A stretch of DNA of 62,962 bases, the filler included, from Asterionella formosa (Eukaryota): NCBI GenBank assembly GCA_002256025.1. It is 25 parts of 25 records of this genome, joined end to end, with 100 filler letters (N's around TTAATTAATTAA, not from the genome) between each part and the next. Parts side by side here need not be neighbours in the genome. Positions count along the whole stretch, not along the records: positions 39,164 to 40,660 come from NKIB01002194.1; 24 more parts are not named here. One strand, given 5' to 3'. The notes beneath the pieces were generated by a model, which saw only the letters and a program-made list of their open reading frames with translations, ran no database searches and was not told the DNA's origin. Position numbers and translations under genes: made by a program. Positions 1,501 to 61,792 of this stretch are shown piece by piece; within the stretch, counting starts at the first letter, position 1, and every line of letters starts with the position of its first letter.

Positions 1501-1600
1501 NNNNNNNNNNNNNNNNNNNNNNNNNNNNNNNNNNNNNNNNNNNNTTAATTAATTAANNNNNNNNNNNNNNNNNNNNNNNNNNNNNNNNNNNNNNNNNNNN
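1501..1600. other. Artificial contig linker N44-TTAATTAATTAA-N44 (stops in all six frames); first of many, e.g. also 3101, 4700, 6299, 31074, 32673 ... 61372
   Basis: An identical 100-bp spacer recurs between unrelated fragments of about 1.5 kb, whose lengths mostly fall from 1500 to about 1491 bp. Confidence 0.98.
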
Positions 1601-2909
1601 ACAAAAGGCAAGGAATAAATGAAATAACAATCAACATCATACCAAGATAAGCGCCAGCAAAACAACCTTGACAACGACCTCAATTCGTCGTTGAATCTTG
1701 AATTTTCTTTCATGAGAAGCTGTAATTAAGAAAGGAGTAAGAGGTGTGAGAAGTAGAAGATCAGAAAGAGTCACAATCACATCAAACTGACCATGCAGAA
1801 GCAACCTTCATCGTGGCGGTTTCCTTGATTTTGGCATGATTTTATAATTTATGTGGCGCAAGTATGATCATGATGATTCTAGGGTACTGGTACCTGGTAC
1901 CATGTACCAGGTACCAGGTACAAACAAGTCTATAATTAATTAATTTAATATGGGCGCGGTCAATTGTGCTCATTTCCTAATAAAATGTACCAGACTCCTC
2001 TAATAAAATGAACACACAAACGAAACTGGCGCAGTCTGCAGTCTTGTACGAGTGTACCATGAGGACCTCCAATTTTACCACCATTCAACAACCAGGTACC
2101 TGGTACCTGGTACCAGGCACATGATACCAGGATTAAAAAGGTACATGAGGAAGAAAGTAAGGCTGCTGGTACCTGGTACCTTGCCAGGTATCAGGTAGGA
2201 GTACCTGTTACCTGGTACCAGGTAATGGAGGGTAGCCCTCGCAATCGCTACAAGGTAAATTATTGTTTAGCTGAGATACTGCGATTCTTTTGACTATACA
2301 AAATCCTACAGTGTAGTTGTTGTGATCATCTGGAGCATCCTGCATCATGTCGTCTCAACCTTGACCATGACGAAAATAGCGGAAATCTCTACGAAAATTG
2401 AGAACGACGCTCTCCTGTTAGGAACATATATCAATCACAACAAAGGCAATACAACCGTAAGAGAATAGTTGCAATGGCATTGATAGTGACAGCGAAAACT
2501 GCAATCGCCGATGGCACAATTTTTCTACATAATCTATAGCTGCTCAAATCAAAACGACGCTGTTGCGAACAGATTTGACATTTTTGCAGTTGCTGAGCAA
2601 TGAACGACTATAACAATAACATGATTAGTTGAAGCAAAAAATTGTTAAAATAGTTATTCATCAAATAAGAATGATTGATTGTACCAACGGCATTTGTGGA
2701 TGCGGATATCGGCGCCAACAACTGCTTGTGCTGTTTGTTCTTTGGCAGTCGATATCAAGGGAAAATGTGATAGAGGAAAAAATAATAATTGAATCGAAAT
2801 TAGTTACTCTTTACTTAATTATGTGGTGAGACCAGCATAATATTGCCGTGAAGTCGCGTAATTTCGCCATTATACCGTTATGAGGGCTAGTTGGAAAAAA
2901 ATATTGTTG

Positions 2910-3097: not shown

Positions 3098-3201
3098 ATG
3101 NNNNNNNNNNNNNNNNNNNNNNNNNNNNNNNNNNNNNNNNNNNNTTAATTAATTAANNNNNNNNNNNNNNNNNNNNNNNNNNNNNNNNNNNNNNNNNNNN
3201 G

Positions 3202-4699
3202 ATGGTTCCTCCACCTGAAATGAAAATACCTCCAACTGCTGACACACTCGACATTGACGAGATGGATCCATCCGAAAATGTCGTACCTGCAACTACTACT
3301 GGTACACTTCTTGACATTAACGAGATTCTTGGTCCCCCTGAAAAGAGGAAACCCTTTCCCGGTTGGCTAGCCAATATTGATGAGTTCGTCAACTCGCTCA
3401 TAGTACCAGATGACTTTATTCTGGATGAAAGTGGGCTGGGATTGATTCATATAAAAGGAATCGACATAAAACATATATCTGTCAAGGTACTTCGAAAAAT
3501 TTGCGTGAGATTTAAAGTGTCAGGGTACAGGAATGGCAAGAAGGACTCCACTATTTCCTTAATTGTCCGTTTACTGAAAAGAGACTGGCTGGTTGGTCAA
3601 CTATACCCCCCCACTCCTATGATCACTTATAATGAAGTGATTGGCATCCACAACAACAACAGGAACAATGATGAATCTATTATTGAAGATGAAGAAAAGA
3701 GTTGTGGCAATGTTGATATGGACTCTGATTGTTCACAGAAAGGGAAGCCAGATGAAGCAGAAAAAGACCCTGACTATGTTCTTAATTCGCAAAATAGCAG
3801 TGATGACGATGACAAATCATTGACTCTTCCTCCTCCTGTTGCAAAGAAGGCAACAAAAAAGAAAAAGGCTACAGTAGCAAAATCAACTCCTCCAAGCAGT
3901 GTGACATGTGCTAACACATATTTTCGTGTCATCAATGTGTACATGTGTGAGCAACACAGAAGTGATGTGTTGATGCTTGGTCAGCCTCCAACTATGGCTG
4001 AACTGGATGTTAGGAAATTCAGGCACAAATACATTTTCGATAGACTCATAACTACATTCCTTGATGATGAAGATGATGACAGCAATAATCTTGCATTTTC
4101 ACAAGATCCTTATTGGGAACAAATGGGAATAGACAGTTGTTACCCAAAGACGTATGACGCTCTGTCCTCTGTCGAATTTTCTATGGCAATGGGGTACATT
4201 AACTATCATTACCAAATTGCATACAGGAACAACAAAAAGTCAGGAAGTCATGATGACTTTGTTAATTTTGTTGGAAGCCGACCTTATATATATTACTACC
4301 ATTTATGGTTGTGCCAAGTTCCTCACCTTCTCAATTTCGCTGTTCCATTACTTCCAAAATCATCATTCCGTGAAAGTACTGATAGTGCCAAATCTTCATC
4401 CTTATCATCAAAGACTGTTGGCTCGAAGAAAGGAAAATGTTCATCTACCTCATCCAATTTGTCCCATCATTCCTCTTCTATGGTACAAATGGCAAATGCA
4501 TTAGAGTGTTTTGAACGAGTAAATGCAGTGAAACTTCAAGTGCTTCAGTCTTCAGCAGGACCAAGACGCGAGAAAGAGATCCTAGATGTTCTGGATCTCT
4601 ATAAAAGTCGTCTCAAGAATGCTCGGAAGGATTTGGAAGAGTTGGAGAATCATGGGTATGACTCCAATAATTCTGATGTAGTTCAGGCTCGACTAGAAA
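3202..4699 (+). CDS. Partial ORF of about 499 aa, probably the DNA-binding accessory protein of a PIF/Harbinger-like transposon (copy/allele 1)
   Basis: Open across the whole contig; helix-extension-helix-like segment (ISVKVLRKICVRFKVSGYRNGKKDSTISLI), acidic linker, basic NLS-like KKATKKKK, FRVINV...TMAELD motif resembling stramenopile transposon-associated Myb-like proteins, C-terminal coiled coil. Confidence 0.5.
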
Positions 4700-4799: not shown

Positions 4800-6297
4800 T
4801 TTCTAGTCGAGCCTGAACTACATCAGAATTATTGGAGTCATACCCATGATTCTCCAACTCTTCCAAATCCTTCCAAGCATTCTTGAGACGACTTTTATAG
4901 AGATCCAGAACATCTAGGATCTCTTTCTCGCGTCTTGGTCCTGCTGAAGACTGAAGCACTTGAAGTTTCACTGCATTTACTCGTTCAAAACACTCTAATG
5001 CATTTGCCATTTGTACCATAGAAGAGGAATGATGGGACAAATTGGATGAGGTAGATGAACATTTTCCTTTCTTCGAGCCAACAGTCTTTGATGATAAGGA
5101 TGAAGATTTGGCAATATCAGTACTTTCACGGAATGATGATTTTGGAAGCAATGGAACAGCGAAATTGAGAAGGTGAGGAACTTGGCACAACCATAAATGG
5201 TAGTAATATATATAAGGTCGGCTTCCAACAAAATTAACAAAGTCATCATGACTTCCTGATTTTTTGTTGTTCCTGGATGCAATTTGGTAATGATAGTTAA
5301 TGTACCCCATTGCCATAGAAAATTCGACAGAGGACAGAGCGTCATATGTCTTTGGGTAACAACTGTCTATTCCCATTTGTTCCCAATAAGGATCTTGTGA
5401 AAATGCAAGATTATTGCTGTCATCATCTTCATCATCAAGGAATGTAGTTATGAGTCTATCGAAAATGTATTTGTGCCTGAATTTCCTAACATCCAGTTCA
5501 GCCATAGTTGGAGGCTGACCAAGCATCAACACATCACTTCTGTGTTGCTCACACATGTACACATTGATGACACGAAAATATGTGTTAGCACATGTCACAC
5601 TGCTTGGAGGAGTTGATTTTGCTACTGTAGCCTTTTTCTTTTTTGTTGCCTTCTTTGCAACAGGAGGAGGAAGAGTCAATGATTTGTCATCGTCATCACT
5701 GCTATTTTGCGAATTAAGAACATAGTCAGGGTCTTTTTCTGCTTCATCTGGCTTCCCTTTCTGTGAACAATCAGAGTCCATATCAACATTGCCACAACTC
5801 TTTTCTTCATCTTCAATAATAGATTCATCATTGTTCCTGTTGTTGTTGTGGATGCCAATCACTTCATTATAAGTGATCATAGGAGTGGGGGGGTATAGTT
5901 GACCAACCAGCCAGTCTCTTTTCAGTAAACGGACAATTAAGGAAATAGTGGAGTCCTTCTTGCCATTCCTGTACCCTGACACTTTAAATCTCACGCAAAT
6001 TTTTCGAAGTACCTTGACAGATATATGTTTTATGTCGATTCCTTTTATATGAATCAATCCCAGCCCACTTTCATCCAGAATAAAGTCATCTGGTACTATG
6101 AGCGAGTTGACGAACTCATCAATATTGGCTAGCCAACCGGGAAAGGGTTTCCTCTTTTCAGGGGGACCAAGAATCTCGTTAATGTCAAGAAGTGTACCAG
6201 TAGTAGTTGCAGGTACGACATTTTCGGATGGATCCATCTCGTCAATGTCGAGTGTGTCAGCAGTTGGAGGTATTTTCATTTCAGGTGGAGGAACCAT
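4800..6297 (-). CDS. Same ORF, copy/allele 2 (near-identical reverse-complement contig)
   Basis: Contig 4800-6298 is the reverse complement of 3201-4699; six substitutions seen (Y>S, S>I, R>W and three synonymous). Confidence 0.5.
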
Positions 6298-6398
6298 CNN
6301 NNNNNNNNNNNNNNNNNNNNNNNNNNNNNNNNNNNNNNNNNNTTAATTAATTAANNNNNNNNNNNNNNNNNNNNNNNNNNNNNNNNNNNNNNNNNNNN

Positions 6399-31173: not shown

Positions 31174-32672
31174 AATCTGCTCTTTGACATTCTTCGTCAA
31201 AATGTCTGCTGGATTGTTTTCTGATCTTAGAAAAACAATATGCAGCTCACCCTCATCTATCATGTTCTTGACATGATGAAACTTAATATCAATGTGTTTT
31301 GTTCTTGTTCCAAGTTGTTGATTCTTCGCTGTGAATATTGCACCTGTATTATCCTCACGTAAAATGCTTGGTAGGATATTTTTGCCACCTGTCACTTCGT
31401 TGAGTAACATTGCAATAAATTTAATCTCTTGAGCACATTGCGACATTGCAACGTATTCTGCTTCTGTGCTTGATAGCGTAACGGATGACTGGCCCTTTGA
31501 TTGCCAACTGATCAACGCACCACCAATGGTAACCAGAAAACCCGTAGTACTTTTCCGGCTTACCTTATTAGCAGCCCAGTCACTATCAACATAAGCAATA
31601 ACCCGTAATTCCTTAGGTTTTCGAATCTTGAGAACTCTGTCCAATTTGCTTGATAAGAATCCAACAACTCGTGAAATTCCATCCCAGTGTTCTTCGCCTG
31701 GACAGCTTAAATACGAAGATAATTCACGTACTGCATTGGCACAGTCCGGGGAATCTTTCTTAGTAGACCATAATAGTTTCCCAACAATCTTGCGATATTC
31801 CGCCTCCATAATAGTTTCTCCATTATTGGCTCCTAATGTTTTTCCTGGTGCTCCTGGTGTCGCATAAGACTTTATCTTCTTACCAGTAAGCATCTCATAT
31901 TCCAGTAGCATTTCAGTACGAAATTTCTTCAGTGGTACTTCCCAGTATTCTCCAAATTTGTCATGCCTGCGCATATATTCCACACCTAAGTGTTTTCGTA
32001 GGGGACCTTGTTCCGTGATATTAAAATCCTCCTTGATCATATTTTTCATATAGTCGACTGCATTCCTGGTACCACAAATAATTCCATCATCCACGTAGTT
32101 TGCCAACAGCCCTTCAATTTGTCCATCGTTGTTACGGTAGATAAACAACATTGGGTCTATTTCGCTTTTCGTTATACCTGTCTTGCTGGTGACGCACTTC
32201 GCGAATGTCTTGGACCAGCATCTTGGAGCTTGTACAATTCCATACATAGCCTTAATTAATTTGCAGATATGTATATTCTGATCGATCCCTGTCAATCCTT
32301 CTGGGGGCTCAATATAAATGTCTTCGTCGACGTCAGCATTTAAAAACGCTGCTTCAACATCGATTGCTTCCGCTATCCAACCATAGTACAAAGTAACAGC
32401 CAGAACAGTTTTTATTGTAGCATCACTTGCAACAGGAGCGAATGTTTCAGTAAAATCAACTCCCGGGATCTGTTCATATCCCTTTACAACCAACCGTGCC
32501 TTGTATACTGTCTTTCCAGTTATCACGTCCTCCTTAATACGGAAGACCCATCTTGTCTTAAGAGCTCTCTTGTTCACGTCATTTCTCTTAACTATTTTCC
32601 ATACTCTTCTTGCTTGGAAGTTTTCAAATTCTTTCTTTATAGCTTTCATCCACTCTTTGCGATCAGGTCTTA
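31174..32672 (-). mobile_element. Ty1/Copia pol fragment (RT + RNase H), intact frame; family B
   Basis: KARLVVKGYEQIPGVDF, DVEAAFLN, YGIVQAPRCW, YVDD, DSDWA, SSTEAEY, EDN, KHIDIKFH, NPADILTK; the last ~107 bp overlap contig 47144. Confidence 0.96.
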
Positions 32673-34270: not shown

Positions 34271-34635
34271 NNNNNNNNNNNNNNNNNNNNNNNNNNNNNN
34301 NNNNNNNNNNNNNNTTAATTAATTAANNNNNNNNNNNNNNNNNNNNNNNNNNNNNNNNNNNNNNNNNNNNACCTGGTACCTGGTACCGGTACCAGGTACC
34401 TGGCATAGAATATGATGGTCTATGTGTCAATAAATAAATACCGTATCCTGTCAATATGTACCGGTGAACGGTAGAAAGATGTACCGGTATGTAAATGGCT
34501 GGTTGCAACCTGAAGATCAATATAGTAGGATACGTAGGCCTCAGTATAGATTTTCTTTTTCTTTTGCATCTAATAATTAAGAGTAAAAATTGTGACACAT
34601 ACAAAAATTGATGCAAATTCTTTGATATATATATA

Positions 34636-39063: not shown

Positions 39064-39163
39064 NNNNNNNNNNNNNNNNNNNNNNNNNNNNNNNNNNNNN
39101 NNNNNNNTTAATTAATTAANNNNNNNNNNNNNNNNNNNNNNNNNNNNNNNNNNNNNNNNNNNN

Positions 39164-39996
39164 CAGTCTCTTGCAATATGCCCGACATATTTATTGCAAT
39201 TATAGCACTTTATCTCATTTTTTTCGTTCGTACCGTTTGCATTCGTTCCGCTTGTGTTCGTTTTTGATCGGCACACGTCGGCCTTGTGCCCTTGTTTGCC
39301 GCAGTTCTTGCAGATACCTCTGTATTTCTGCGTGAATAGGGCGATCTCCTTTGTGCTCTTCGTGCCCTTTAGCTTTCGTTTGTAGAATGCTCGGATCTTG
39401 CCTTTCAATTCGTTGAGGCTGATTGTTGTCATGCCCTCGACGACTGTAACAACCTCGCTGTACTCCACTGGAAGCTTGTCGATAACGTTCGCAATCACTT
39501 CCATTTCTTTCTTCTCAAATGACGGGTCGATCGCCATCATCTTGCTTTGTATTAGATCGAGCTCAATGAACCATTCGTCTGGATCAGAGGAGCTATCGTT
39601 CAGCTTGCATTTGTTGAAATCGCTTGCCAGCTGGATCAGGTCCGACACAGAATGGGGGGCATACCTCGCTTCGAGGTTCTTCCACGCCATGTATGCATCG
39701 CCATCGATCAACGTTTTCGTTTTGGCTTGGTTTACGAGTCCGAAGGCGATTCCGGTGCAGCTCATGATGAGCAACTGGTACGCCTTGTCGTTGGCCTCGT
39801 AGATAGCCCTGACTCCTTTGTCTGTCTCGACTTCGTACTCTTCGTCAGAACACGGGTTGTGGTTCTTGGAGTACATCGTTCGGAATCCTCTTGCCTTCGC
39901 CAGAGCGAGCGTTTTAACGCTCCACTGGTACCAGTTCGTTTCGTTGCCATCAAACTTGATGAGCCTCATGCTCTCTTCAGACATTTCTGTAGACAT
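39164..39996 (-). mobile_element. Copia family A gag (intact, partial) with two CCHC zinc knuckles
   Basis: KFDG....WYQWSVK, AW..LEARYAP, DPDEWF, LP.EY, CKNCGKQGHKADVC, CYNCNKYVGHIARD. Confidence 0.92.
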
Positions 39997-40025
39997 GTTA
40001 AAACACTTAAGTCCGTTTATAAACG

Positions 40026-40447
40026 TGTTAAAGTATTACCTTTTTGTATAGATCTATATCGTTAGACAAAGAAGACTATAGATAGAGACGTTCGTTTCTC
40101 TTTCCGTTTCTATATTCTTATTGTGAGTTTACTAATCTAGTTTAGGTTGTTCTGTTTGAACAAAACAAACGAACTATTCTCCAAATGCTGTTTGCATTTC
40201 TAGGAACATACAATCATAGATAGACCCATGCCTATCTCATACTTACTGATCATAGGTTTTTAACCATGATCATTCATTTCAAACTATTGGTCTTCCGAAA
40301 TAGCTTATAATGTCCGGCTCATTATAGTCGGAGTAACAAGGTATAATGTGTGGTTGATGAGAGCTTGGTACATCAAAGTTGACTCATTCGAATCGGTTGA
40401 CTCGTTTGACTCCGAGTCCTAACTACGTAAATGAGCTCACTTTAACA
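40026..40447 (-). mobile_element. 5' LTR of Copia family A, 422 bp
   Basis: Bounded by a perfect 9-bp terminal inverted repeat TGTTAAAGT...ACTTTAACA; ends 29 bp upstream of the gag ATG. Confidence 0.85.
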
Positions 40448-40760
40448 CAGGTTTACCAAATTTGGTCAACACAAACACAAATTTTGGGGTTATGGGTACA
40501 ACGATTTGTGTTATAATACACATGATATAGTATTATTTTATTATCAGAGCGCGCCCAGTAAAAACCCATAATTCTATTAAAACTCTTAGGAACGATTACA
40601 ATCGATCACGGAGACATCGTTGTTCATATCTACAGCCTATTTGGTCCCTGACGTGTCCTTNNNNNNNNNNNNNNNNNNNNNNNNNNNNNNNNNNNNNNNN
40701 NNNNTTAATTAATTAANNNNNNNNNNNNNNNNNNNNNNNNNNNNNNNNNNNNNNNNNNNN

Positions 40761-43950: not shown

Positions 43951-44647
43951 CCCTTTCGTGTAGAAGGCCTGTTCACTCTTGTTCTTGTTAGTCGTTTTGA
44001 CGTCATCCCGGACATATAGATCGTAGTAGTCCCGGATGTCTGTCTTAATCTCTTCGACCGTTAGCGTGTTGCGCGCCAGGCCGAACCTTCCTACTACCAA
44101 ACTCTTGTAGCTTTCAGGTAGGTTGTTGATCATGTGTGCCACATAGGCACCATCCGAAACGGCGGAGCTCGTATTGCCCAATCGTTCCCGGATTCGATCC
44201 AACTCCACATACCAGCTGTCGGGGTTCTCGTTTTCCCCTAGAGTGCACTTCGTCCATTGGTGGGACAAGGCAATGACATTCGCCATGTTGCCTGACTCAT
44301 ACGTAGAAATGAGCTTGTCCCATGCTTCTTTAGCATTGCCGTTAGGAAACTCGGCACTTCTTGCATTATTTACGTGTCCGAATGGCCCAGCCACTCTGGC
44401 ATGCCATTATCAGACTTGCGTAAGCAACTGTGTTGCTCCTTCGGATGCGTCTCTCGTCAGCATCCGACAACACGATCGTATCGCCCTTTAGGTCTTTCTC
44501 TCCTCTTGGTAGTTCGTCACCGTTAAGTATTCCTTGAAAGTTCTTGTAGCACGCGTATGCGAGAAACTTCGCTTTCCACATGTGCCATTTAGCATCTTGC
44601 CCATCGAATGTCGGCAACCTCACTGACGTGTCTTCGTCACTTCCCAT
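43951..44647 (-). mobile_element. Copia family B gag, one frameshift near 44390
   Basis: LPTFDG..AKWHMWKAKFLAYA...LIMAC | PFGHVNNA..GNAKEAWDKL..YE, NPDSWY, NNLPESY; homologous to family A gag. Confidence 0.92.
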
Positions 44648-44691
44648 GGTTCCTGAGTAGCCTGTGGCCTTAAAGTGAACGCTTTAAAGCG

Positions 44692-45070
44692 TGTTGAAAG
44701 GTCTCGTACTCCTTCCCGTCTGACGGGTTCCTCTTACGTAGAACTTACCTGCTATACCACTAGTATTGTTATCTTCTTTCTGCTGCTAGCCTTCGTGCTA
44801 GTTTTCGCTATTGACCTTACTCTGTCAATTCTCACTGTTTCTTAATTATAAGATTAAACTAAAACTAAGTTTCAATCCCATTCATCACACTTCGAGAACC
44901 TGTTCTTCGTGTTCCCTTTTCGTTGATGTAAACCTTCTTCTGATTGATCTAAGACATCAATCTCGTTAGCAAGCTTCTTGACATGGGAACGCACCATTTG
45001 ACTCATTGGACTATAGTCGAGTCCACAGTCCTTGTGACTCATTATAGCCATTGATGCTATATTCTTGACA
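44692..45070 (-). mobile_element. 5' LTR of Copia family B, 379 bp, TGT...ACA
   Basis: Reverse complement of 47322-47700 with two mismatches. Confidence 0.96.
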
Positions 45071-45336
45071 CAGAAGGTCCGGGTAGACTAGACTACTGGT
45101 ACGTGGTACCACCTAGTACCAGGTACCAGGAGTAAGAATGATACGACATCCGACAATCCACATCACATGATGGACAAAGCCCCGAGGAGCATGTTTTCTA
45201 TTTCTTTACCCGGTCTATACAGTTGAGTCCTTCTTAACTTCCTTGTTGACCACCACCATACCAACCGGAAGCAGCACTCACTTATCATAGTCCCCAATCT
45301 AATCCAATCTAAAACACATCATAGAAAACACACAAA

Positions 45337-45449
45337 ATGAAGGATCGAACAAGCAACAATACACCCTTCCGTTCTCTCTGCTGCTTGTTCTTGTTGTTGC
45401 TTGGCCAAGTAATACTGACACCTGGATCGGCTTGGTCAAGTGCCGTCAC
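45337..45449 (+). CDS. Probable start of a host gene with a signal peptide (partial)
   Basis: MKDRTSNNTPFRSLCCLFLLLLGQVILTPGSA|WSS; hydrophobic core and a cleavage-like site; cut by contig end. Confidence 0.45.
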
Positions 45450-47143: not shown

Positions 47144-47700
47144 TTCATCATGTCAAGAACATGATAGATGAGGGTGAGTTGCATATTGTTTTTCTAAGAT
47201 CAGAAAACAATCCAGCAGACATTTTGACGAAGAATGTCAAAGAGCAGATTTTTACAAGGTTATCTGGACCTGTGCTGAGTGGTACAATTTTAGAACTTCT
47301 TGAACATGGTAACGAGGAGGATGTCAAGAATATAGCATCAATGGCTATAATGAGTCACAAGGACTGTGGACTCGACTATAGTCCAATGAGTCAAATGGTG
47401 CGTTCCCATGTCAAGAAGCTTGCTAACGAGATTGATGTCTTAGATCAATCAGAAGAAGGTTTACATCAACGAAAAGGGAACACGAAGAACAGGTTCTCGA
47501 AGTGTGATGAATGGGATTGAAACTTAGTTTTAGTTTAATCTTATAATTAAGAAACAGTGAGAATTGACAGAGTAAGGTCAATAGCGAAAACTAGCACGAA
47601 GGCTAGCAGCAGAAAGAAGATAACAATACTAGTGGTATAGCAGGTAAGTTTTACCTAAGAGGAACCCGTCAGACGGGAAGGAGTACGAGACCTTTCAACA
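47144..47700 (+). mobile_element. Copia family B 3' end: RNase H tail, polypurine tract (about 47311-47321), 3' LTR 47322-47700
   Basis: NPADILTKN; AACGAGGAGGA then TGTCAAG...TTTCAACA; overlaps the contig at 31174; LTR matches 44692-45070. Confidence 0.96.
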
Positions 47701-48737: not shown

Positions 48738-50231
48738 GATGGACCGACTAACGTTTTCTGTGACAACGAGGTGGTGATGAATAGACATTGAAAAAGAAAC
48801 ATAATGCGATAGCGTATCACAGAGCGATAGAAGCTGTGGCGGCAGGGACGATTCGGGTAACGAAGGAAGATGGAATTTGGCTGATGTGCTCACGAAGCCA
48901 TTATCCCAAATTACACGAGAGTATTTGTGCGACAAGTTCATGTATTGATGGCTGTTGGATCACAGTGGGTCGAAGATTGAAGCCAAGGTTCATCGCGATG
49001 TCACAACCTATGACACCGGTTACCTCCTGGGCACGCAATGACGTGTGGCACCGAATCCAGGTCGATGTTTAGTTGTATATTTGTTTGGTTTCATCTCCCA
49101 TGTATTCGAGGGGACTGAACGAATATTGCAGTGCAGTGTGGGCGCGTGGATGAACGTACCGTGTCATACGGTACAGGGGACTAACTAGCCGTTAGAGTGT
49201 TTTAGCGATAGTACAGCATGCAAGCTTGGAGCAGCGAATGCGCTAGAACGGCGTAGGTTTATATATCTTTAAGTCTATCTTTTCAACCTTTATCTTTCTT
49301 TCCTTGTGCACCATGTAAGTTGTTCTGCCGACCACACTAGCGTATTTATTCGCATAGAATGGCAGTTGTACCTCACATAGAAGATTGCTCAGCTCTTTGG
49401 ATCGAACATCCTACTTTGATTGATGTTGAGCGATGTTCACCTCCCTTGTCTAATGGTTTCTTTTGACAGTATTGACCTGGATGGATCTCTTCTTACTTTT
49501 TCAGGACATTACTCTGGTTTCTGCTTACAACATTTCTCATTAGCAAGTACATGCTCCTCTTCCATCTTCCTGAGGAGTGCATTGGAACAGTAATCGACAG
49601 AGCACTGTCAAGACATCGATGTTTGGTAGCGAATTTGTGGCACTGAAAATCTCGGTTGCACTGATCGAGGCATTGAGGTATAAGCTGAGACTGTTTGGAA
49701 TCCCAATTGATGGACCGACTAACGTTTTCTGTGACAACGAGGTGGTGATGAATAGACATTGAAAAAGAAACATAATGCGATAGCGTATCACAGAGCGATA
49801 GAAGCTGTGGCGGCAGGGACGATTCGGGTAACGAAGGAAGATGGAATTTGGCTGATGTGCTCACGAAGCCATTATCCCAAATTACACGAGAGTATTTGTG
49901 CGACAAGTTCATGTATTGATGGCTGTTGGATCACAGTGGGTCGAAGATTGAAGCCAAGGTTCATCGCGATGTCACAACCTATGACACCGGTTACCTCCTG
50001 GGCACGCAATGACGTGTGGCACCGAATCCAGGTCGATGTTTAGTTGTATATTTGTTTGGTTTCATCTCCCATGTATTCGAGGGGACTGAACGAATATTGC
50101 AGTGCAGTGTGGGCGCGTGGATGAACGTACCGTGTCATACGGTACAGGGGACTAACTAGCCGTTAGAGTGTTTTAGCGATAGTACAGCATGCAAGCTTGG
50201 AGCAGCGAATGCGCTAGAACGGCGTAGGTTT
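48738..50231 (+). mobile_element. Degenerate CoDi-like Copia 3' end (RNase H remnant, PPT, LTR about 49116-49439) repeated with a 971-bp period
   Basis: FGSEFVALK, LRYKLRLFGIPIDGPTNVFCDN, KKKHNAIAYH; GAGGGGAC then TGAAC...GTTCA; 48738-49260 = 49709-50231. Confidence 0.88.
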
Positions 50232-59947: not shown

Positions 59948-61792
59948 GGTGATCACGTAATATAGTGATGATCAGGAATGCATGCATGATACTCTGATCA
60001 AATAATGAACGTGATGTATTCAGATAATATATAGATATATTCAAGAAAGCATTTTGATGTATTCATCTAATTCATGTGATCCATTCAAAATCAACTAGGT
60101 TTATTTACGTGATGGTCACTTCACGTAATACTCGGCTTAGATGCAGTTCCAAATTTTTTTCAGTGGGTCACAGCATTTCTTTACTGCCACCTGGTACCTG
60201 GTAGTGTACAGTGCATCTACCGGGAACGTAGTGGTAAAAAATTAAACTCCCAGTTAAACCCTTAGTGGAAGCTAGCACTAGCAGTTTACTCGTACTCCAC
60301 TACTGTCCACAAAGCTAGCGACAATACCGGTACTGGTAGCAGCTACCATTGCTCCTATCGACTGGTACTGGTACTGGTACCGGGTACCAGGGTACCGTAA
60401 CAGGGTACGTGTATGCGGTGAATTGACAATTGTATATATTAGAGTACTTAATATGGAGTCACCATGAGTACATATACTTTTGTACTATATTACAGTAAAT
60501 AGAGGACCAAGTCGATTACTGGTAGGTATGTCTATTTATCATATAACCGAAATGAAGTGAATCAATCAATGTGTAGCTACATATATTGAAAAATAGTGAG
60601 AAAAAAATGTAACTACAGAAGTATGAAATCATGCATCTGTGTAATAATAACCTAAATATATACTAGCTGTGTATGACCACCAATGTGATGATCAGCAGAT
60701 ATCAATTGATTGGCAATCTAATCTGTGGCACTGTTCTATCTGGAATATATACCTCATACATTTTGTCAATTTGCAATGTGGCAGTGAAAAGAATGCAGCT
60801 CAAAGTAGGGTAGTCATCATTTCCACACAACGCTTTGCCAAGCAACAATACTCCACTTTTTTACTCTATCCTGCACATCCCTCTTAACATTTGTAGCCAC
60901 CTCACAAACCTAGTTCCAACTTTGCATTCCTACCAAAGAACAAATAGCTTTTGGTGTAACAGAAAGACTACAATACTGACAAAATTGCTTCCTCTCTCCT
61001 AACTCTTTGATGCACATCCTGCATCATTTCTGTTGGTTCATCAACTTGTTAATTGTTGAAAACTTCTTTCTGGACTCTCAATCATCATTCTGCATACTTG
61101 TCACTCCTTCTACCACCAATAATACTAGTAGTCAGAAGTCAAAACTCCTTCAAGATGAGAGTTGATTGCCTGATGTCATCCACCATACTTTCAAAACTAG
61201 GCGATATTGCATCTCGATCTGCTGGGAGTACAACCCAAGTATATCCTGCAGGTAAGAAGTACCTGTAGTCTACCGATGCTGCATACCTCATTCATGTACC
61301 ATGGTACCATACCTGGTACCAGGTACCAGGTACCAATGGTACATAAATGAGGATGGGGTTTAATTTTTGTGNNNNNNNNNNNNNNNNNNNNNNNNNNNNN
61401 NNNNNNNNNNNNNNNTTAATTAATTAANNNNNNNNNNNNNNNNNNNNNNNNNNNNNNNNNNNNNNNNNNNNGGTATTTCGTTTCGCTTGTTACCCCCCCT
61501 TATATTTCCTATATTGTTCTTAATTAAGTAAAAAGCTTAAATAAAAGAAACGCCCACCCTGTTGTGCTTCTCCTTCAGTACTATAAAAACACATGAAGGA
61601 AAATTATGTCTATCAAACGTCGAAATCCGGGTTTTTTCATGTGCACAATCCTGCTAAGACAATACACAACAATCAACCACAAAACATAGACCCTCCCTGG
61701 GGATGGAAACTACTTGGCCATACTTCAACTTGGCCGTAGTTCTATTACAGGAAAAAATCCGGGTTTCTTCATGTGCAGCGACCCCTCCCCTG

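What the first reader, a model, noticed from the sequence alone, without database searches (positions are those of the whole stretch)
40014..40025. Copia family A has a 12-bp palindrome instead of a tRNA primer-binding site; it covaries with the one in family B
Seen: reading the element strand, the 5' LTR ends ...TTTAACA and is followed immediately by CGTTTATAAACG, a perfect palindrome, then GACTTAAG, with the gag ATG 17 nt after the palindrome. Family B has a different-looking LTR and a divergent gag, yet carries CGCTTTAAAGCG at the identical position. The two 12-mers differ at four sites, and these form two symmetric pairs (3/10 T-A vs C-G; 6/7 A-T vs T-A), so self-complementarity is preserved while sequence changes. 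Established: Copia PBSs normally start TGG (tRNA CCA end) or match half of tRNA-iMet (GGTTATGGGCCC). tRNA-independent arrangements are known from Tf1 self-priming and from the conserved hairpin site of fungal GalEa Copia. Inference: this lineage may prime minus-strand synthesis without tRNA, through fold-back or intermolecular pairing of two genomic RNAs at the palindrome. Only two examples support this.
Basis: partly seen in the sequence, partly recalled or inferred. Interest (0 to 1): 0.82.

Follow-up and report, generated by a model that had tools for sequence, protein, structure and literature searches.

The report
Palindrome replaces tRNA primer site
A group of diatom-type Copia retrotransposons carries, exactly where the tRNA primer should bind, a 12-letter sequence that pairs perfectly with itself and keeps doing so while its letters change, which suggests that these elements start reverse transcription from their own RNA and not from a host tRNA.

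Summary

**Site and borders**
- CGTTTATAAACG (40014-40025, minus strand) abuts the last base of a 422-bp 5' LTR. Public reads and a 99%-identical metagenome copy confirm that border.
- Family B's CGCTTTAAAGCG abuts a 379-bp LTR whose end is fixed by a 3' LTR copy.

**Relatives**
- I examined 34 related gag 5' ends. Of these, 16 have a perfect palindrome right after ...CA, in nine different versions.
- Three sites are degenerate, one has the half-tRNA-iMet type site, and 14 show none.
- All six base pairs covary: 95.6% of cells are paired and 0 of 500 shuffles reach that value.
- The central four bases are always self-complementary. Hairpins are near 0 kcal/mol and homodimers are -11 to -21 kcal/mol. 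This points to a 12-bp duplex between two copies.

**What was excluded**
- None of the nine palindromic versions starts with TGG.
- No LTR segment complements the site, so it is not Tf1-type.
- There is no second downstream copy, so it is not the fungal GalEa hairpin-site layout.

**Best reading (inferred)**
The site is the primer-binding site, and the primer is a sister genomic RNA cut at the 3' edge of its palindrome. Host tRNAs could not be tested. I class this as a new variant of a known kind.

The parts
40014..40025 (-). Family A palindromic site CGTTTATAAACG, at the primer-binding-site position directly after the 5' LTR
   Evidence: Same 12-mer at the same place in L001, L002 and L008. 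No variant in 40014-40025 among the 40 variant rows shown (116 more rows not shown).
40026..40447 (-). Family A 5' LTR, 422 bp, TGTTAAAG...CTTTAACA (perfect 8-bp terminal inverted repeat)
   Evidence: Loose ends at 40026 and 40448, and about two- to three-fold summed depth between them in X1 and X4 (not in X10), in public runs. L001 shows PPT | TGTTAAAG at the start and the palindrome at the end.
40031..40037 (-). U5 arm AATACTT of a stem that brackets the palindrome
   Evidence: Pairs with 40002-40008 in the minimum-free-energy fold. Bracketing complementarity is significant over 12 families taken together, but not for this family alone.
40002..40008 (-). Leader arm AAGTGTT of the bracketing stem
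39166..39996 (-). Family A gag (277 aa, runs off the contig end), with a CCHC knuckle
   Evidence: Pfam PF14223 Retrotran_gag_2, E 2e-8. 1572 relatives at E <= 0.001.
44680..44691 (-). Family B palindromic site CGCTTTAAAGCG (14-nt palindrome if the LTR's last A and the next T are counted)
44692..45070 (-). Family B 5' LTR, 379 bp, TGTCAAG...CTTTCAACA
   Evidence: 99.5% identical to 47322-47700 over exactly this span. Ends read.
43951..44647 (-). Family B gag, broken by a frameshift (93 aa from ATG 44647, then 152 aa in another frame)
   Evidence: PF14223, E 1.2e-11 on the second part.
47322..47700 (+). Family B 3' LTR copy on another contig, preceded by the purine-rich tract AACGAGGAGGA (47311-47321) and followed by unrelated flank
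31174..32670 (-). Family B pol fragment (RVT_2). Its contig end overlaps the start of the contig that holds the 3' LTR.
   Evidence: Pfam PF07727, E 1.6e-47. 107-bp, 99% overlap with 47144-47250.

Best explanation
The 12-nt palindrome is the element's primer-binding site, and it has dispensed with tRNA.

Shown:
- It starts at the first base after the LTR, which is where the 3' end of the minus-strand primer must sit.
- It is a clade-wide trait of diatom-type Copia elements.
- Selection acts on pairing of the whole 12-mer with a copy of itself, and not on its letters.

Inferred mechanism:
1. Two co-packaged genomic RNAs pair through their palindromes into a 12-bp duplex. Complementary U5 and leader arms on either side help.
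2. One strand is cut at the 3' edge of its palindrome, by analogy with the RNase H cut in Tf1 and with the cut tRNA-iMet primer of copia. Both analogies are recalled, not tested.
3. The new ...CG-3'OH, paired to the first base of the partner's site, is extended by reverse transcriptase through U5 and R to give minus-strand strong-stop DNA.
4. Plus-strand synthesis later copies the 12-nt RNA primer and so regenerates the site.

A single mutation would therefore break two pairs of the duplex at once and must be compensated at the mirror position. This is the pattern seen.
For: Position:
- The palindrome abuts the LTR end in family A and family B.
- In L052 the LTR runs PPT | TGTTAAAA...TTTTAACA | palindrome, and L020 shows a like layout.

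Spread:
- 16 of 34 related gag 5' ends have a perfect palindrome right after ...CA.
- The nine versions are CGTTTATAAACG, CGTTTTAAAACG, CGCTTGCAAGCG, CGCTTTAAAGCG, CGATAATTATCG, CGATTATAATCG, TACTTTAAAGTA, TACCAATTGGTA and the 14-mer CGTTTTTAAAAACG.

Covariation (16 rows, with the three degenerate copies left in):
- 95.6% of cells are paired, against 68.0% in shuffles, and 0 of 500 shuffles reach the observed value.
- 6 of 6 pairs have changes on both sides.
- Slid controls give 35-43% paired.

Duplex and not hairpin:
- The central 4 nt are self-complementary in all nine versions.
- Hairpin energies are 0 to -2.5 kcal/mol. Homodimers are -11.0 to -21.1 kcal/mol.

Decay:
- Copy 1 of L006 has lost its ATG and reads TACTTGCAAGCG. 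The intact copy 2 keeps the palindrome.

Bracketing U5/leader complementarity over 12 families:
- Summed duplex energy is -117 against -77.6 +/- 7.9 kcal/mol in shuffles, and 0 of 1000 shuffles are as low.
- Summed symmetric stem length is 71 against 56.3 +/- 4.2, P = 0.001.

Relatives and tree:
- Relatives in the same gag family use the half-tRNA type site GGTTATGAGCCC (L023, L029). That string ends an oligonucleotide listed in a yeast Met-tRNAiMet paper (passage seen).
- On the gag tree the palindrome trait needs only 2 changes (0 of 500 shuffles as low), and one origin is not rejected (AU p = 0.13).

Expression:
- An RNA-library contig bridges U5, the palindrome and gag (39617-40055, 0 mismatches).
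Against: - Nothing here shows priming, a cut, or an RNA 3' end at the palindrome. The RNA run was available only as contigs and may hold DNA.
- No host genome or tRNA set was at hand, so complementarity to a tRNA fragment was not tested directly.
- L024 has an open gag frame of 409 aa up to the contig end, yet its site is imperfect (CGATAATTCTCA; 4 of 6 pairs).
- L005, a near-twin of L008, reads TGTTTATAAACT.
- The bracketing stem is weak or absent in single families (wB, L021, L051, L025).
- In clade 2 the LTR end is backed by a PPT/TG signature only for L020 and L052. For the others it rests on the shared ...TTTTAACA / ...CTAACA / ...CTCAACA motif.
- Priming by a sister RNA destroys one genome copy. 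That cost has no measured compensation.
Confidence: 0.5

Rival explanations
1. Fold-back self-priming in cis. The RNA is cut after the palindrome, the 3' end folds into a small hairpin on itself, and it is extended through its own U5-R.
For: The palindrome can form a 4-bp hairpin in 8 of 9 versions. The minimum-free-energy folds place it at the tip of a U5/leader stem in family A. The flanking complementarity fits a closing stem.
Against: Hairpin energies are only 0 to -2.5 kcal/mol, and TACTTTAAAGTA does not fold at all. In a hairpin the central 4 nt would be loop and free to vary, yet they are self-complementary in all nine versions and covary (AT, TA, GC at pair 6/7). Local folds are no better than shuffles (z -0.26 to +0.11).
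Confidence: 0.12
2. The palindrome is only a dimerisation or packaging signal, like a retroviral dimer initiation site. The primer is something else, not yet recognised.
For: Self-complementarity of the full 12-mer and strong homodimer energies are what a dimer linkage site needs. Retroviral DIS elements are palindromic (as discussed in PMC5445492, passages seen).
Against: The LTR's last base is set by where the primer's 3' end sits, so the primer-binding site must start within a few bases of ...CA. That is where the palindrome starts. In clade 1 only 17-39 nt separate the palindrome from the gag ATG, and they share no other conserved block. None of the nine versions starts with TGG.
Confidence: 0.15
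3. A host RNA (a cleaved tRNA half or another small RNA) primes by pairing to part of the 12-mer. The palindromy is incidental, for example a relic of an anticodon stem-loop site.
For: Relatives use a half-tRNA type site of the same length at the same place (L023, L029). The pattern Y-T-T-N-N-A-A inside several versions looks like the complement of an anticodon loop (my reading, not tested). Host tRNAs could not be checked.
Against: Nine different 12-mers would need nine different primers. An even, perfect palindrome cannot be the complement of a 5-bp stem with a 7-nt loop. Changes are always compensated at the mirror position (6 of 6 pairs), which a fixed host RNA would not require.
Confidence: 0.08
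4. The palindrome acts in DNA as the binding site of a dimeric protein (integrase, a transcription factor or a nuclease).
For: Palindromic DNA sites are typical of dimeric proteins. The site lies at an LTR edge.
Against: The letters are not conserved. CGTTTATAAACG and TACCAATTGGTA share only one position (position 9, A), while pairing is kept throughout. That is the signature of nucleic-acid pairing and not of protein recognition.
Confidence: 0.05

Closest known systems
[quoted passage not shown] 2017, PMC5445492; abstract and passages read)
   Same: A Copia element with no tRNA-type site. [quoted passage not shown] The mechanism is unknown. That paper places GalEa and the diatom CoDi-like clades in the same major Copia branch.
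   Different: The fungal site is a 9-bp CTGATCAGT/CTAATTAGT that is palindromic only together with the LTR's last A. It is followed 12-41 bp downstream by a second, inverse-complementary copy with a fixed A/A mismatch. Here the palindrome is 12-14 nt with other letters. It starts after the LTR in clade 1. No second copy follows it (summed best match 84 against 84.0 +/- 2.8 in shuffles). Whether the two are homologous could not be tested, for lack of reference RT sequences.
Tf1-type self-priming (Tf1/Tf2, Maggy, Skippy; predicted for the plant TAR Copia lineage, PMC6317226, passages read)
   Same: No tRNA. The element's own RNA would give the primer after a cut at the end of an RNA-RNA duplex of about 11-12 bp at the primer-binding site.
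   Different: In Tf1 the first 11 nt of the transcript pair with a non-palindromic site. Here no LTR segment complements the site beyond chance: the longest matches are 5-6 nt, and 70-98% of shuffles do as well, in 5 of 5 families.
Half-tRNA-iMet priming of copia, Ty5 and Osser type elements (hemivirus type; named in PMC6317226; details recalled)
   Same: A 12-nt site directly after ...CA, with a primer made by cutting an RNA bound to the site. Relatives in the same gag family carry GGTTATGAGCCC (L023, L029).
   Different: The palindromic families do not carry that string, and their sites differ from one another.
Retroviral dimer initiation site (DIS)
   Same: A self-complementary sequence in the 5' leader that can join two genomic RNAs.
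   Different: The DIS is a 6-nt palindrome in a hairpin loop, and it exists in addition to a tRNA primer-binding site (as summarised in PMC5445492). Here the palindrome occupies the primer-binding site position itself.

Membership tests
Ty1/Copia LTR retrotransposon | Copia-type gag and RVT_2 reverse transcriptase, with TG...CA LTRs and a polypurine tract | tested here: met
   PF14223 on both gags and PF07727 on the family B pol. L004 holds one 1509-aa gag-pol frame, and its database twin P0151 carries PF14223, PF00098, PF22936, PF00665 and PF07727. LTR ends and PPTs were read.
Fungal GalEa Conserved Hairpin Site | No tRNA-complementary site after the 5' LTR | tested here: inconclusive
   None of the nine versions starts with TGG, and covariation argues against a fixed host RNA. 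No host tRNA set was available.
Fungal GalEa Conserved Hairpin Site | CHSeq1: conserved 9 bp (CTGATCAGT / CTAATTAGT), palindromic together with the LTR's final A | tested here: not met
   The sites here are 12-14 nt with other letters. The LTR's A is part of the palindrome only in family B, L020 and the L022 group, and not in clade 1.
Fungal GalEa Conserved Hairpin Site | CHSeq2: a second, inverse-complementary copy 12-41 bp downstream with an A/A mismatch | tested here: not met
   The best downstream match is 6-8 of 12 (8 of 14 for the 14-mer L051) in 12 families, which equals shuffles (P = 0.55).
Fungal GalEa Conserved Hairpin Site | RT/RNase H groups inside the GalEa clade | not testable with these tools
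The nearest named RT relatives are diatom proteins at 43-46% identity.
Tf1-type self-priming elements | The 5' end of the transcript (start of R) is complementary to the primer-binding site over about 11 nt | tested here: not met
   The longest LTR match to the site's complement is 5-6 nt in 5 of 5 families, no better than shuffles.
Half-tRNA-iMet (hemivirus-type) primer-binding site | A site complementary to the anticodon stem-loop of initiator tRNA (GGTTATGAGCCC type) | tested here: not met
   Absent from all palindromic families. Present in relatives L023 and L029. The string's link to tRNA-iMet rests on an oligonucleotide in PMC11230868 and on recall.
CoDi (diatom Copia) clades | RT groups with the CoDi elements of Maumus et al. 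2009 | not testable with these tools
   No reference sequences were available. The main text of PMC2806351 does not mention a primer-binding site (term search).

The most novel reading that the evidence does not exclude
In this old clade of diatom-type Copia elements one 12-nt palindrome is at once the dimer linkage site, the primer-binding site and the primer. The co-packaged sister RNA, cut at the edge of the palindromic duplex, starts reverse transcription. The host tRNA (the half-tRNA-iMet still used by relatives) has thus been replaced by the element's own genome. The fungal GalEa hairpin site may be a second outcome of the same strategy in the same Copia branch.
Probability: 0.4. Interest if true: 0.85.

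Novelty: new variant of a known kind. Interest (0 to 1): 0.72.

Why it matters
**An unexplained precedent becomes testable.** How LTR elements without a tRNA site start reverse transcription is known only for Tf1. The fungal GalEa hairpin site has had no mechanism since 2017. Here nine naturally compensated versions show that the whole site pairs with a copy of itself. That narrows the options to a duplex between two RNAs and gives a clean test: break the palindrome, restore it, and try mutually complementary pairs.

**A possible path of change.** The palindromic site sits beside relatives with half-tRNA sites. This offers a route from a cut tRNA primer to a self-derived primer.

**A practical consequence for annotation.** Pipelines that keep only LTR candidates with a tRNA-type primer-binding site (for example the LTRdigest filter described in PMC7466962, passage seen) would drop these elements. 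Diatom Copia content may therefore be undercounted.

Tried and rejected
- **Whole genome:** none is held for this window.
- **tRNA genes:** none in the window or in 58 loci, so no direct tRNA test was possible.
- **Reads over several pieces:** Only piece A was laid, so family B has no read support. The RNA run shows presence only.
- **Broad gag alignment A1:** too diverse for a locus scan. The narrower A2 found 9 metagenome loci, and nothing in viral contigs or genome contigs.
- **Polyprotein alignment A4:** found 9 loci in genome contigs and 1 in viral contigs. L014 has no LTRs, and L019 lacks the 5' end.
- **Protein Atlas:** gave no taxa.
- **Earlier findings of this scan:** none.
- **Local RNA folds:** no better than shuffles.
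- **Tf1-type complementarity:** rejected.
- **Second downstream copy (CHSeq2):** rejected.
- **Supplements of PMC2806351:** CoDi sequences that may sit there could bear on whether published CoDi elements carry the same site.
- **Literature:** searches for a palindromic primer-binding site in diatom Copia found only the fungal GalEa paper and a bivalve TRIM paper that cites it.
- **The 14 gag 5' ends without a palindrome:** left unclassified. L056 has only 100 nt upstream. L050 has a 14-nt palindrome, CTGAATTAATTCAG, that is not preceded by CA.

Full report
**1. What the window is**

The 62,962-base window is not one stretch of genome. It is 25 contigs joined by 24 linkers of 100 bases (N...TTAATTAATTAA...N). 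Four contigs are about 1.5 kb, one is 24.7 kb, and twenty are about 1.49 kb. The finding lies in piece 39164-40660 and family B lies in piece 43951-45449. These pieces are not neighbours in a genome. No whole genome is held for the window.

**2. The observation**

*Family A.* On the minus strand, piece A reads ...GGTAATACTTTAACA | CGTTTATAAACG | GACTTAAGTGTTTTAAC | ATG.
- The palindrome is at 40025->40014 and the gag ATG is at 39996, 17 nt later.
- The ORF has a Copia gag domain (PF14223) and a CCHC knuckle.

*Family B.* Piece B reads ...GAGACCTTTCAACA | CGCTTTAAAGCG | TTCACTTTAAGG...ATG. Its gag is frameshifted.

*Chance.* Each 12-mer occurs once in the window and never in 100 shuffles. Perfect 12-nt palindromes as such are not rare here. 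After removing the 24 linkers there are 35, against 16.1 expected (30 shuffles). Many of these belong to a GGTACC-based repeat. The argument therefore rests on position and covariation.

**3. LTR borders**

*Family B.* The 379 bp at 44692-45070 recur at 99.5% identity at 47322-47700 on another contig. There they are preceded by ...AACGAGGAGGA and followed by unrelated sequence. The LTR is therefore TGTCAAG...CTTTCAACA, and the palindrome starts at the next base.

*Family A.* There is no second LTR in the window, so I used outside data.
- The piece is held by 20 of 24 listed public runs from 14 studies, including six RNA libraries.
- I laid contigs of four runs on it. In X1, 22 contigs have unrelated loose ends at 40026.
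- Contigs end or diverge at 40448 in X1, X4 and X10. In X4 and X10 the sequence beyond 40448 reads, in element orientation, ...GGAACAAGGAGAG. That is the polypurine tract next to a 3' LTR.
- Summed depth between the two places is about two to three times that over gag in X1 and X4. X10 shows no such rise.
- Locus L001 (99% gag identity) shows the same PPT | TGTTAAAG...CTTTAACA | palindrome.

The family A LTR is thus 40447->40026, 422 bp, with a perfect 8-bp terminal inverted repeat.

No variant inside 40014-40025 is among the 40 variant rows shown (116 more rows were not shown). An RNA-library contig bridges 39617-40055 without a mismatch. This shows presence in an RNA library, not a transcript end.

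**4. Relatives**

*How they were found.*
- The gag has 1572 relatives at E <= 0.001 among 1.84 billion representatives.
- A scan of metagenome contigs with a gag alignment gave nine loci at 58-99% identity.
- Several of these contigs are collapsed assemblies with one LTR between the pol end and gag, so they show PPT, LTR and site in one piece.
- A polyprotein alignment then hit contigs in assemblies labelled as bacterial. A search of those assemblies with the gag profile found 53 matches in 4 of 5 of them. I fetched eleven more stretches.

*Tally.* I examined 34 gag 5' ends with at least 100 nt upstream. They are not all independent, because several are copies of one family.

| Class | Count | Loci |
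|---|---|---|
| Perfect palindrome directly after ...CA | 16 | wA, wB, L001-L004, L006 copy 2, L008, L020, L021, L022, L025, L051, L052, L054, L058 |
| Degenerate version | 3 | L005 (TGTTTATAAACT), L006 copy 1 (TACTTGCAAGCG, ATG lost), L024 (CGATAATTCTCA) |
| Half-tRNA type GGTTATGAGCCC | 1 | L023 (also seen in the partial L029, outside the count) |
| No such palindrome seen | 14 | |

*The nine versions.* CGTTTATAAACG, CGTTTTAAAACG, CGCTTGCAAGCG, CGCTTTAAAGCG, CGATAATTATCG, CGATTATAATCG, TACTTTAAAGTA, TACCAATTGGTA, and the 14-mer CGTTTTTAAAAACG.

*LTR ends in clade 2.* For L020 and L052 a PPT | TGTTAA... start lies upstream at LTR distance. For the other clade 2 families the LTR end is inferred from the shared ...TTTTAACA-type ending.

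**5. Covariation**

I aligned 16 sites without gaps, leaving the three degenerate copies in, and counted pairs.
- 95.6% of cells form a standard pair, against 68.0 +/- 3.2% in shuffles (0 of 500 as high).
- All six pairs have changes on both sides, and 25 cells are changed on both sides, against 7.2 in shuffles.
- Sliding the partner by 1-3 columns gives 35-43% paired.
- Pair types seen are CG/UA at 1/12, GC/AU at 2/11, AU/CG/UA at 3/10, UA/CG at 4/9, UA/AU at 5/8, and AU/UA/GC at 6/7.

The letters themselves are barely conserved. This excludes a protein-binding motif and a fixed host RNA as the main constraint.

**6. Duplex or hairpin**

The middle four bases would be the loop of a hairpin and free to vary. 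They are self-complementary in all nine versions.

| Form | Predicted energy |
|---|---|
| Hairpin | 0 to -2.5 kcal/mol (one version does not fold) |
| Homodimer | -11.0 to -21.1 kcal/mol |

Selection therefore acts on a full 12-bp duplex between two copies of the site.

Around the site, the end of U5 and the leader are complementary in family-specific ways. Examples are AATACTT/AAGTGTT in A, GTGTAAGG/CTTTACAC in L002, TAGATAC/GTATCTA in L008 and TAGGTA/TACCTA in L020.

Over 12 families this is significant:
- Summed duplex energy is -117 against -77.6 +/- 7.9 kcal/mol, and 0 of 1000 shuffles are as low.
- Summed symmetric stem length is 71 against 56.3 +/- 4.2, P = 0.001.

In single families (wB, L021, L051, L025) it is not significant. 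These arms could close a hairpin in cis or extend a dimer in trans.

**7. What it is not**

- *Canonical tRNA site.* None of the nine versions starts with TGG. Host tRNAs could not be tested.
- *Tf1 type.* The longest match between the site's complement and the LTR is 5-6 nt in 5 of 5 families, as in shuffles.
- *Fungal GalEa layout.* There is no second copy downstream (summed best match 84 against 84.0 +/- 2.8, P = 0.55), and the letters differ.
- *Half-tRNA-iMet type.* That string is absent from the palindromic families but present in relatives L023 and L029. The same string ends an oligonucleotide in a yeast Met-tRNAiMet paper (PMC11230868, oligonucleotide table seen). The identification with the iMet anticodon stem-loop is otherwise from memory.

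**8. Distribution**

- On a gag tree of 26 rows, the palindromic families form clade 1 (A, L002, L003, L005, L006), several clade 2 groups, B and L051.
- Nine rows without a palindrome form one well-supported clade (98/99). L023 (iMet type) pairs with L026.
- The trait needs 2 changes (0 of 500 shuffles as low), and a single origin is not rejected (AU p = 0.13).
- Rows left out of the tree: L001, L004 and L008 (duplicates of families already included), L048 and L053 (near-copies of L035), and L050 and L056 (poor or short).
- Gag identity between the clades is about 30%, so the trait is old.
- The nearest named RT relatives are proteins of the diatoms Fragilaria crotonensis and Fistulifera solaris, at 43-46% identity. 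"Diatom-type" is therefore likely, but the host of the window was not determined.

**9. Mechanism**

*Shown.* The site occupies the primer position and is selected to pair with itself over its whole length.

*Established knowledge.* The LTR's last base is set by where the minus-strand primer's 3' end lies, so the primer must end opposite the first base of the palindrome.

*Inferred.*
1. The primer is another copy of the same RNA, cut just after its own palindrome. Its ...CG-3'OH pairs with the partner's first C.
2. Reverse transcriptase copies U5-R. RNase H trims the primer down to the 12-nt duplex.
3. Plus-strand synthesis copies those 12 nt and restores the site.
4. The cut would resemble the RNase H cut at the end of the 11-bp duplex in Tf1 and the cutting of tRNA-iMet in copia (both recalled).

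I put this reading at 0.5. Within it, the trans (dimer) version is favoured over cis fold-back.

**10. Comparison and novelty**

The closest precedent is the Conserved Hairpin Site of fungal GalEa Copia (PMC5445492; abstract and passages read). It is also a palindrome at the LTR edge, it also lacks a tRNA site, and its mechanism is also unknown. That paper places GalEa and the CoDi-like diatom clades in one major Copia branch.

The present site differs in four ways:
- its length and letters;
- the lack of the second repeat;
- its host group;
- the strength of the covariation evidence, which points to a duplex between two RNAs.

The main text of Maumus et al. 2009 (PMC2806351, term search only) does not mention a primer-binding site. 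Five literature searches found no report of a palindromic site in diatom Copia.

I class it as a new variant of a known kind.

Noticed in passing
window 1501-1600 and 23 further places (e.g. 39064-39163, 40661-40760): The window is a chain of 25 contigs joined by 100-base N...TTAATTAATTAA...N linkers. Neighbouring pieces are not neighbours in a genome, and the linker itself is a 12-nt palindrome.
   Followed up: yes
window 2092-2117, 2211, 29454, 34382-34403, 37828, 42001, 54259, 58794, 61296-61323; also 45100-45140: A GGTACC-based palindromic motif (CCTGGTACCAGG / CCAGGTACCTGG / GGTACCGGTACC) recurs on many separate contigs. It accounts for much of the excess of 12-nt palindromes (35 against about 16 expected). 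It may be a dispersed repeat or the ends of a transposon.
   Followed up: no
window 3201-4699 and 4800-6298: The same 1499-bp contig is present twice in opposite orientation (99.6%). It has a 499-aa open frame without any Pfam match.
   Followed up: no
window 48738-50231: The first and last 523 bp of this contig are identical (100%), which gives a 971-bp period. It is a tandem repeat or a circular molecule assembled past its start.
   Followed up: no
window 40047-40058; L003 3075-3100; L008 about 4280-4300; L006 about 5900-5920: About 20-30 nt before the LTR end, each clade 1 family has its own second palindrome or hairpin in U5. Examples are TATAGATCTATA in A, AGATCTTA-AAAG-TAAGATCT in L003 and GCAGTC-A-GACTGC in L006.
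   Followed up: partly
window about 40125-40135; L003, L006, L008 LTRs: A conserved LTR block, (A/G)CTCACAATA(A/T), lies about 100-130 nt before the LTR end in four clade 1 families whose LTRs are otherwise unalignable. It may be a transcription start or a poly(A) signal.
   Followed up: no
L004 4640-4670; L003 2650-2670: The single 1509-aa gag-pol frame runs through the polypurine tract, and its stop codon TGA is the first three bases of the 3' LTR.
   Followed up: partly
L023 about 185-200; L029: Relatives in the same gag family carry ...CACA | GGTTATGAGCCC, the half-tRNA-iMet type site.
   Followed up: partly
L027 (=L016) 393-410; L041 about 885-900; L035/L048/L053: Other relatives share ...ACA | ATATAAGT (L027, L041) or ...TTAAACA | CTACGTAAAAACCCTCGAACCGG (L035 group). 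These may be further primer types, such as a tRNA-Ile half or T-arm complementarity. That is my reading and was not tested.
   Followed up: no
L021 2037-2088 (minus strand): The palindrome TACCAATTGGTA overlaps by one base a second 12-nt palindrome, ATCAGCGCTGAT. The leader to the gag ATG is 553 nt long and holds tandem repeats.
   Followed up: no
handles G001-G004 (loci L010-L058): Four assemblies labelled as bacterial hold 1 to 32 Copia gag matches each, on short contigs. These are eukaryotic sequences binned into bacterial genomes.
   Followed up: partly
L005 3376-3447 versus L008 4334-4405: These two copies are 98.3% identical overall. They differ at about seven positions within 50 nt around the site, and the differences break both the palindrome and the bracketing stem in L005.
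   Followed up: partly
window 40449-40660: The flank into which the family A copy is inserted is itself highly repeated in public runs. Contigs run through 40448 into other sequence (57 loose ends in X1), as an empty site would.
   Followed up: no
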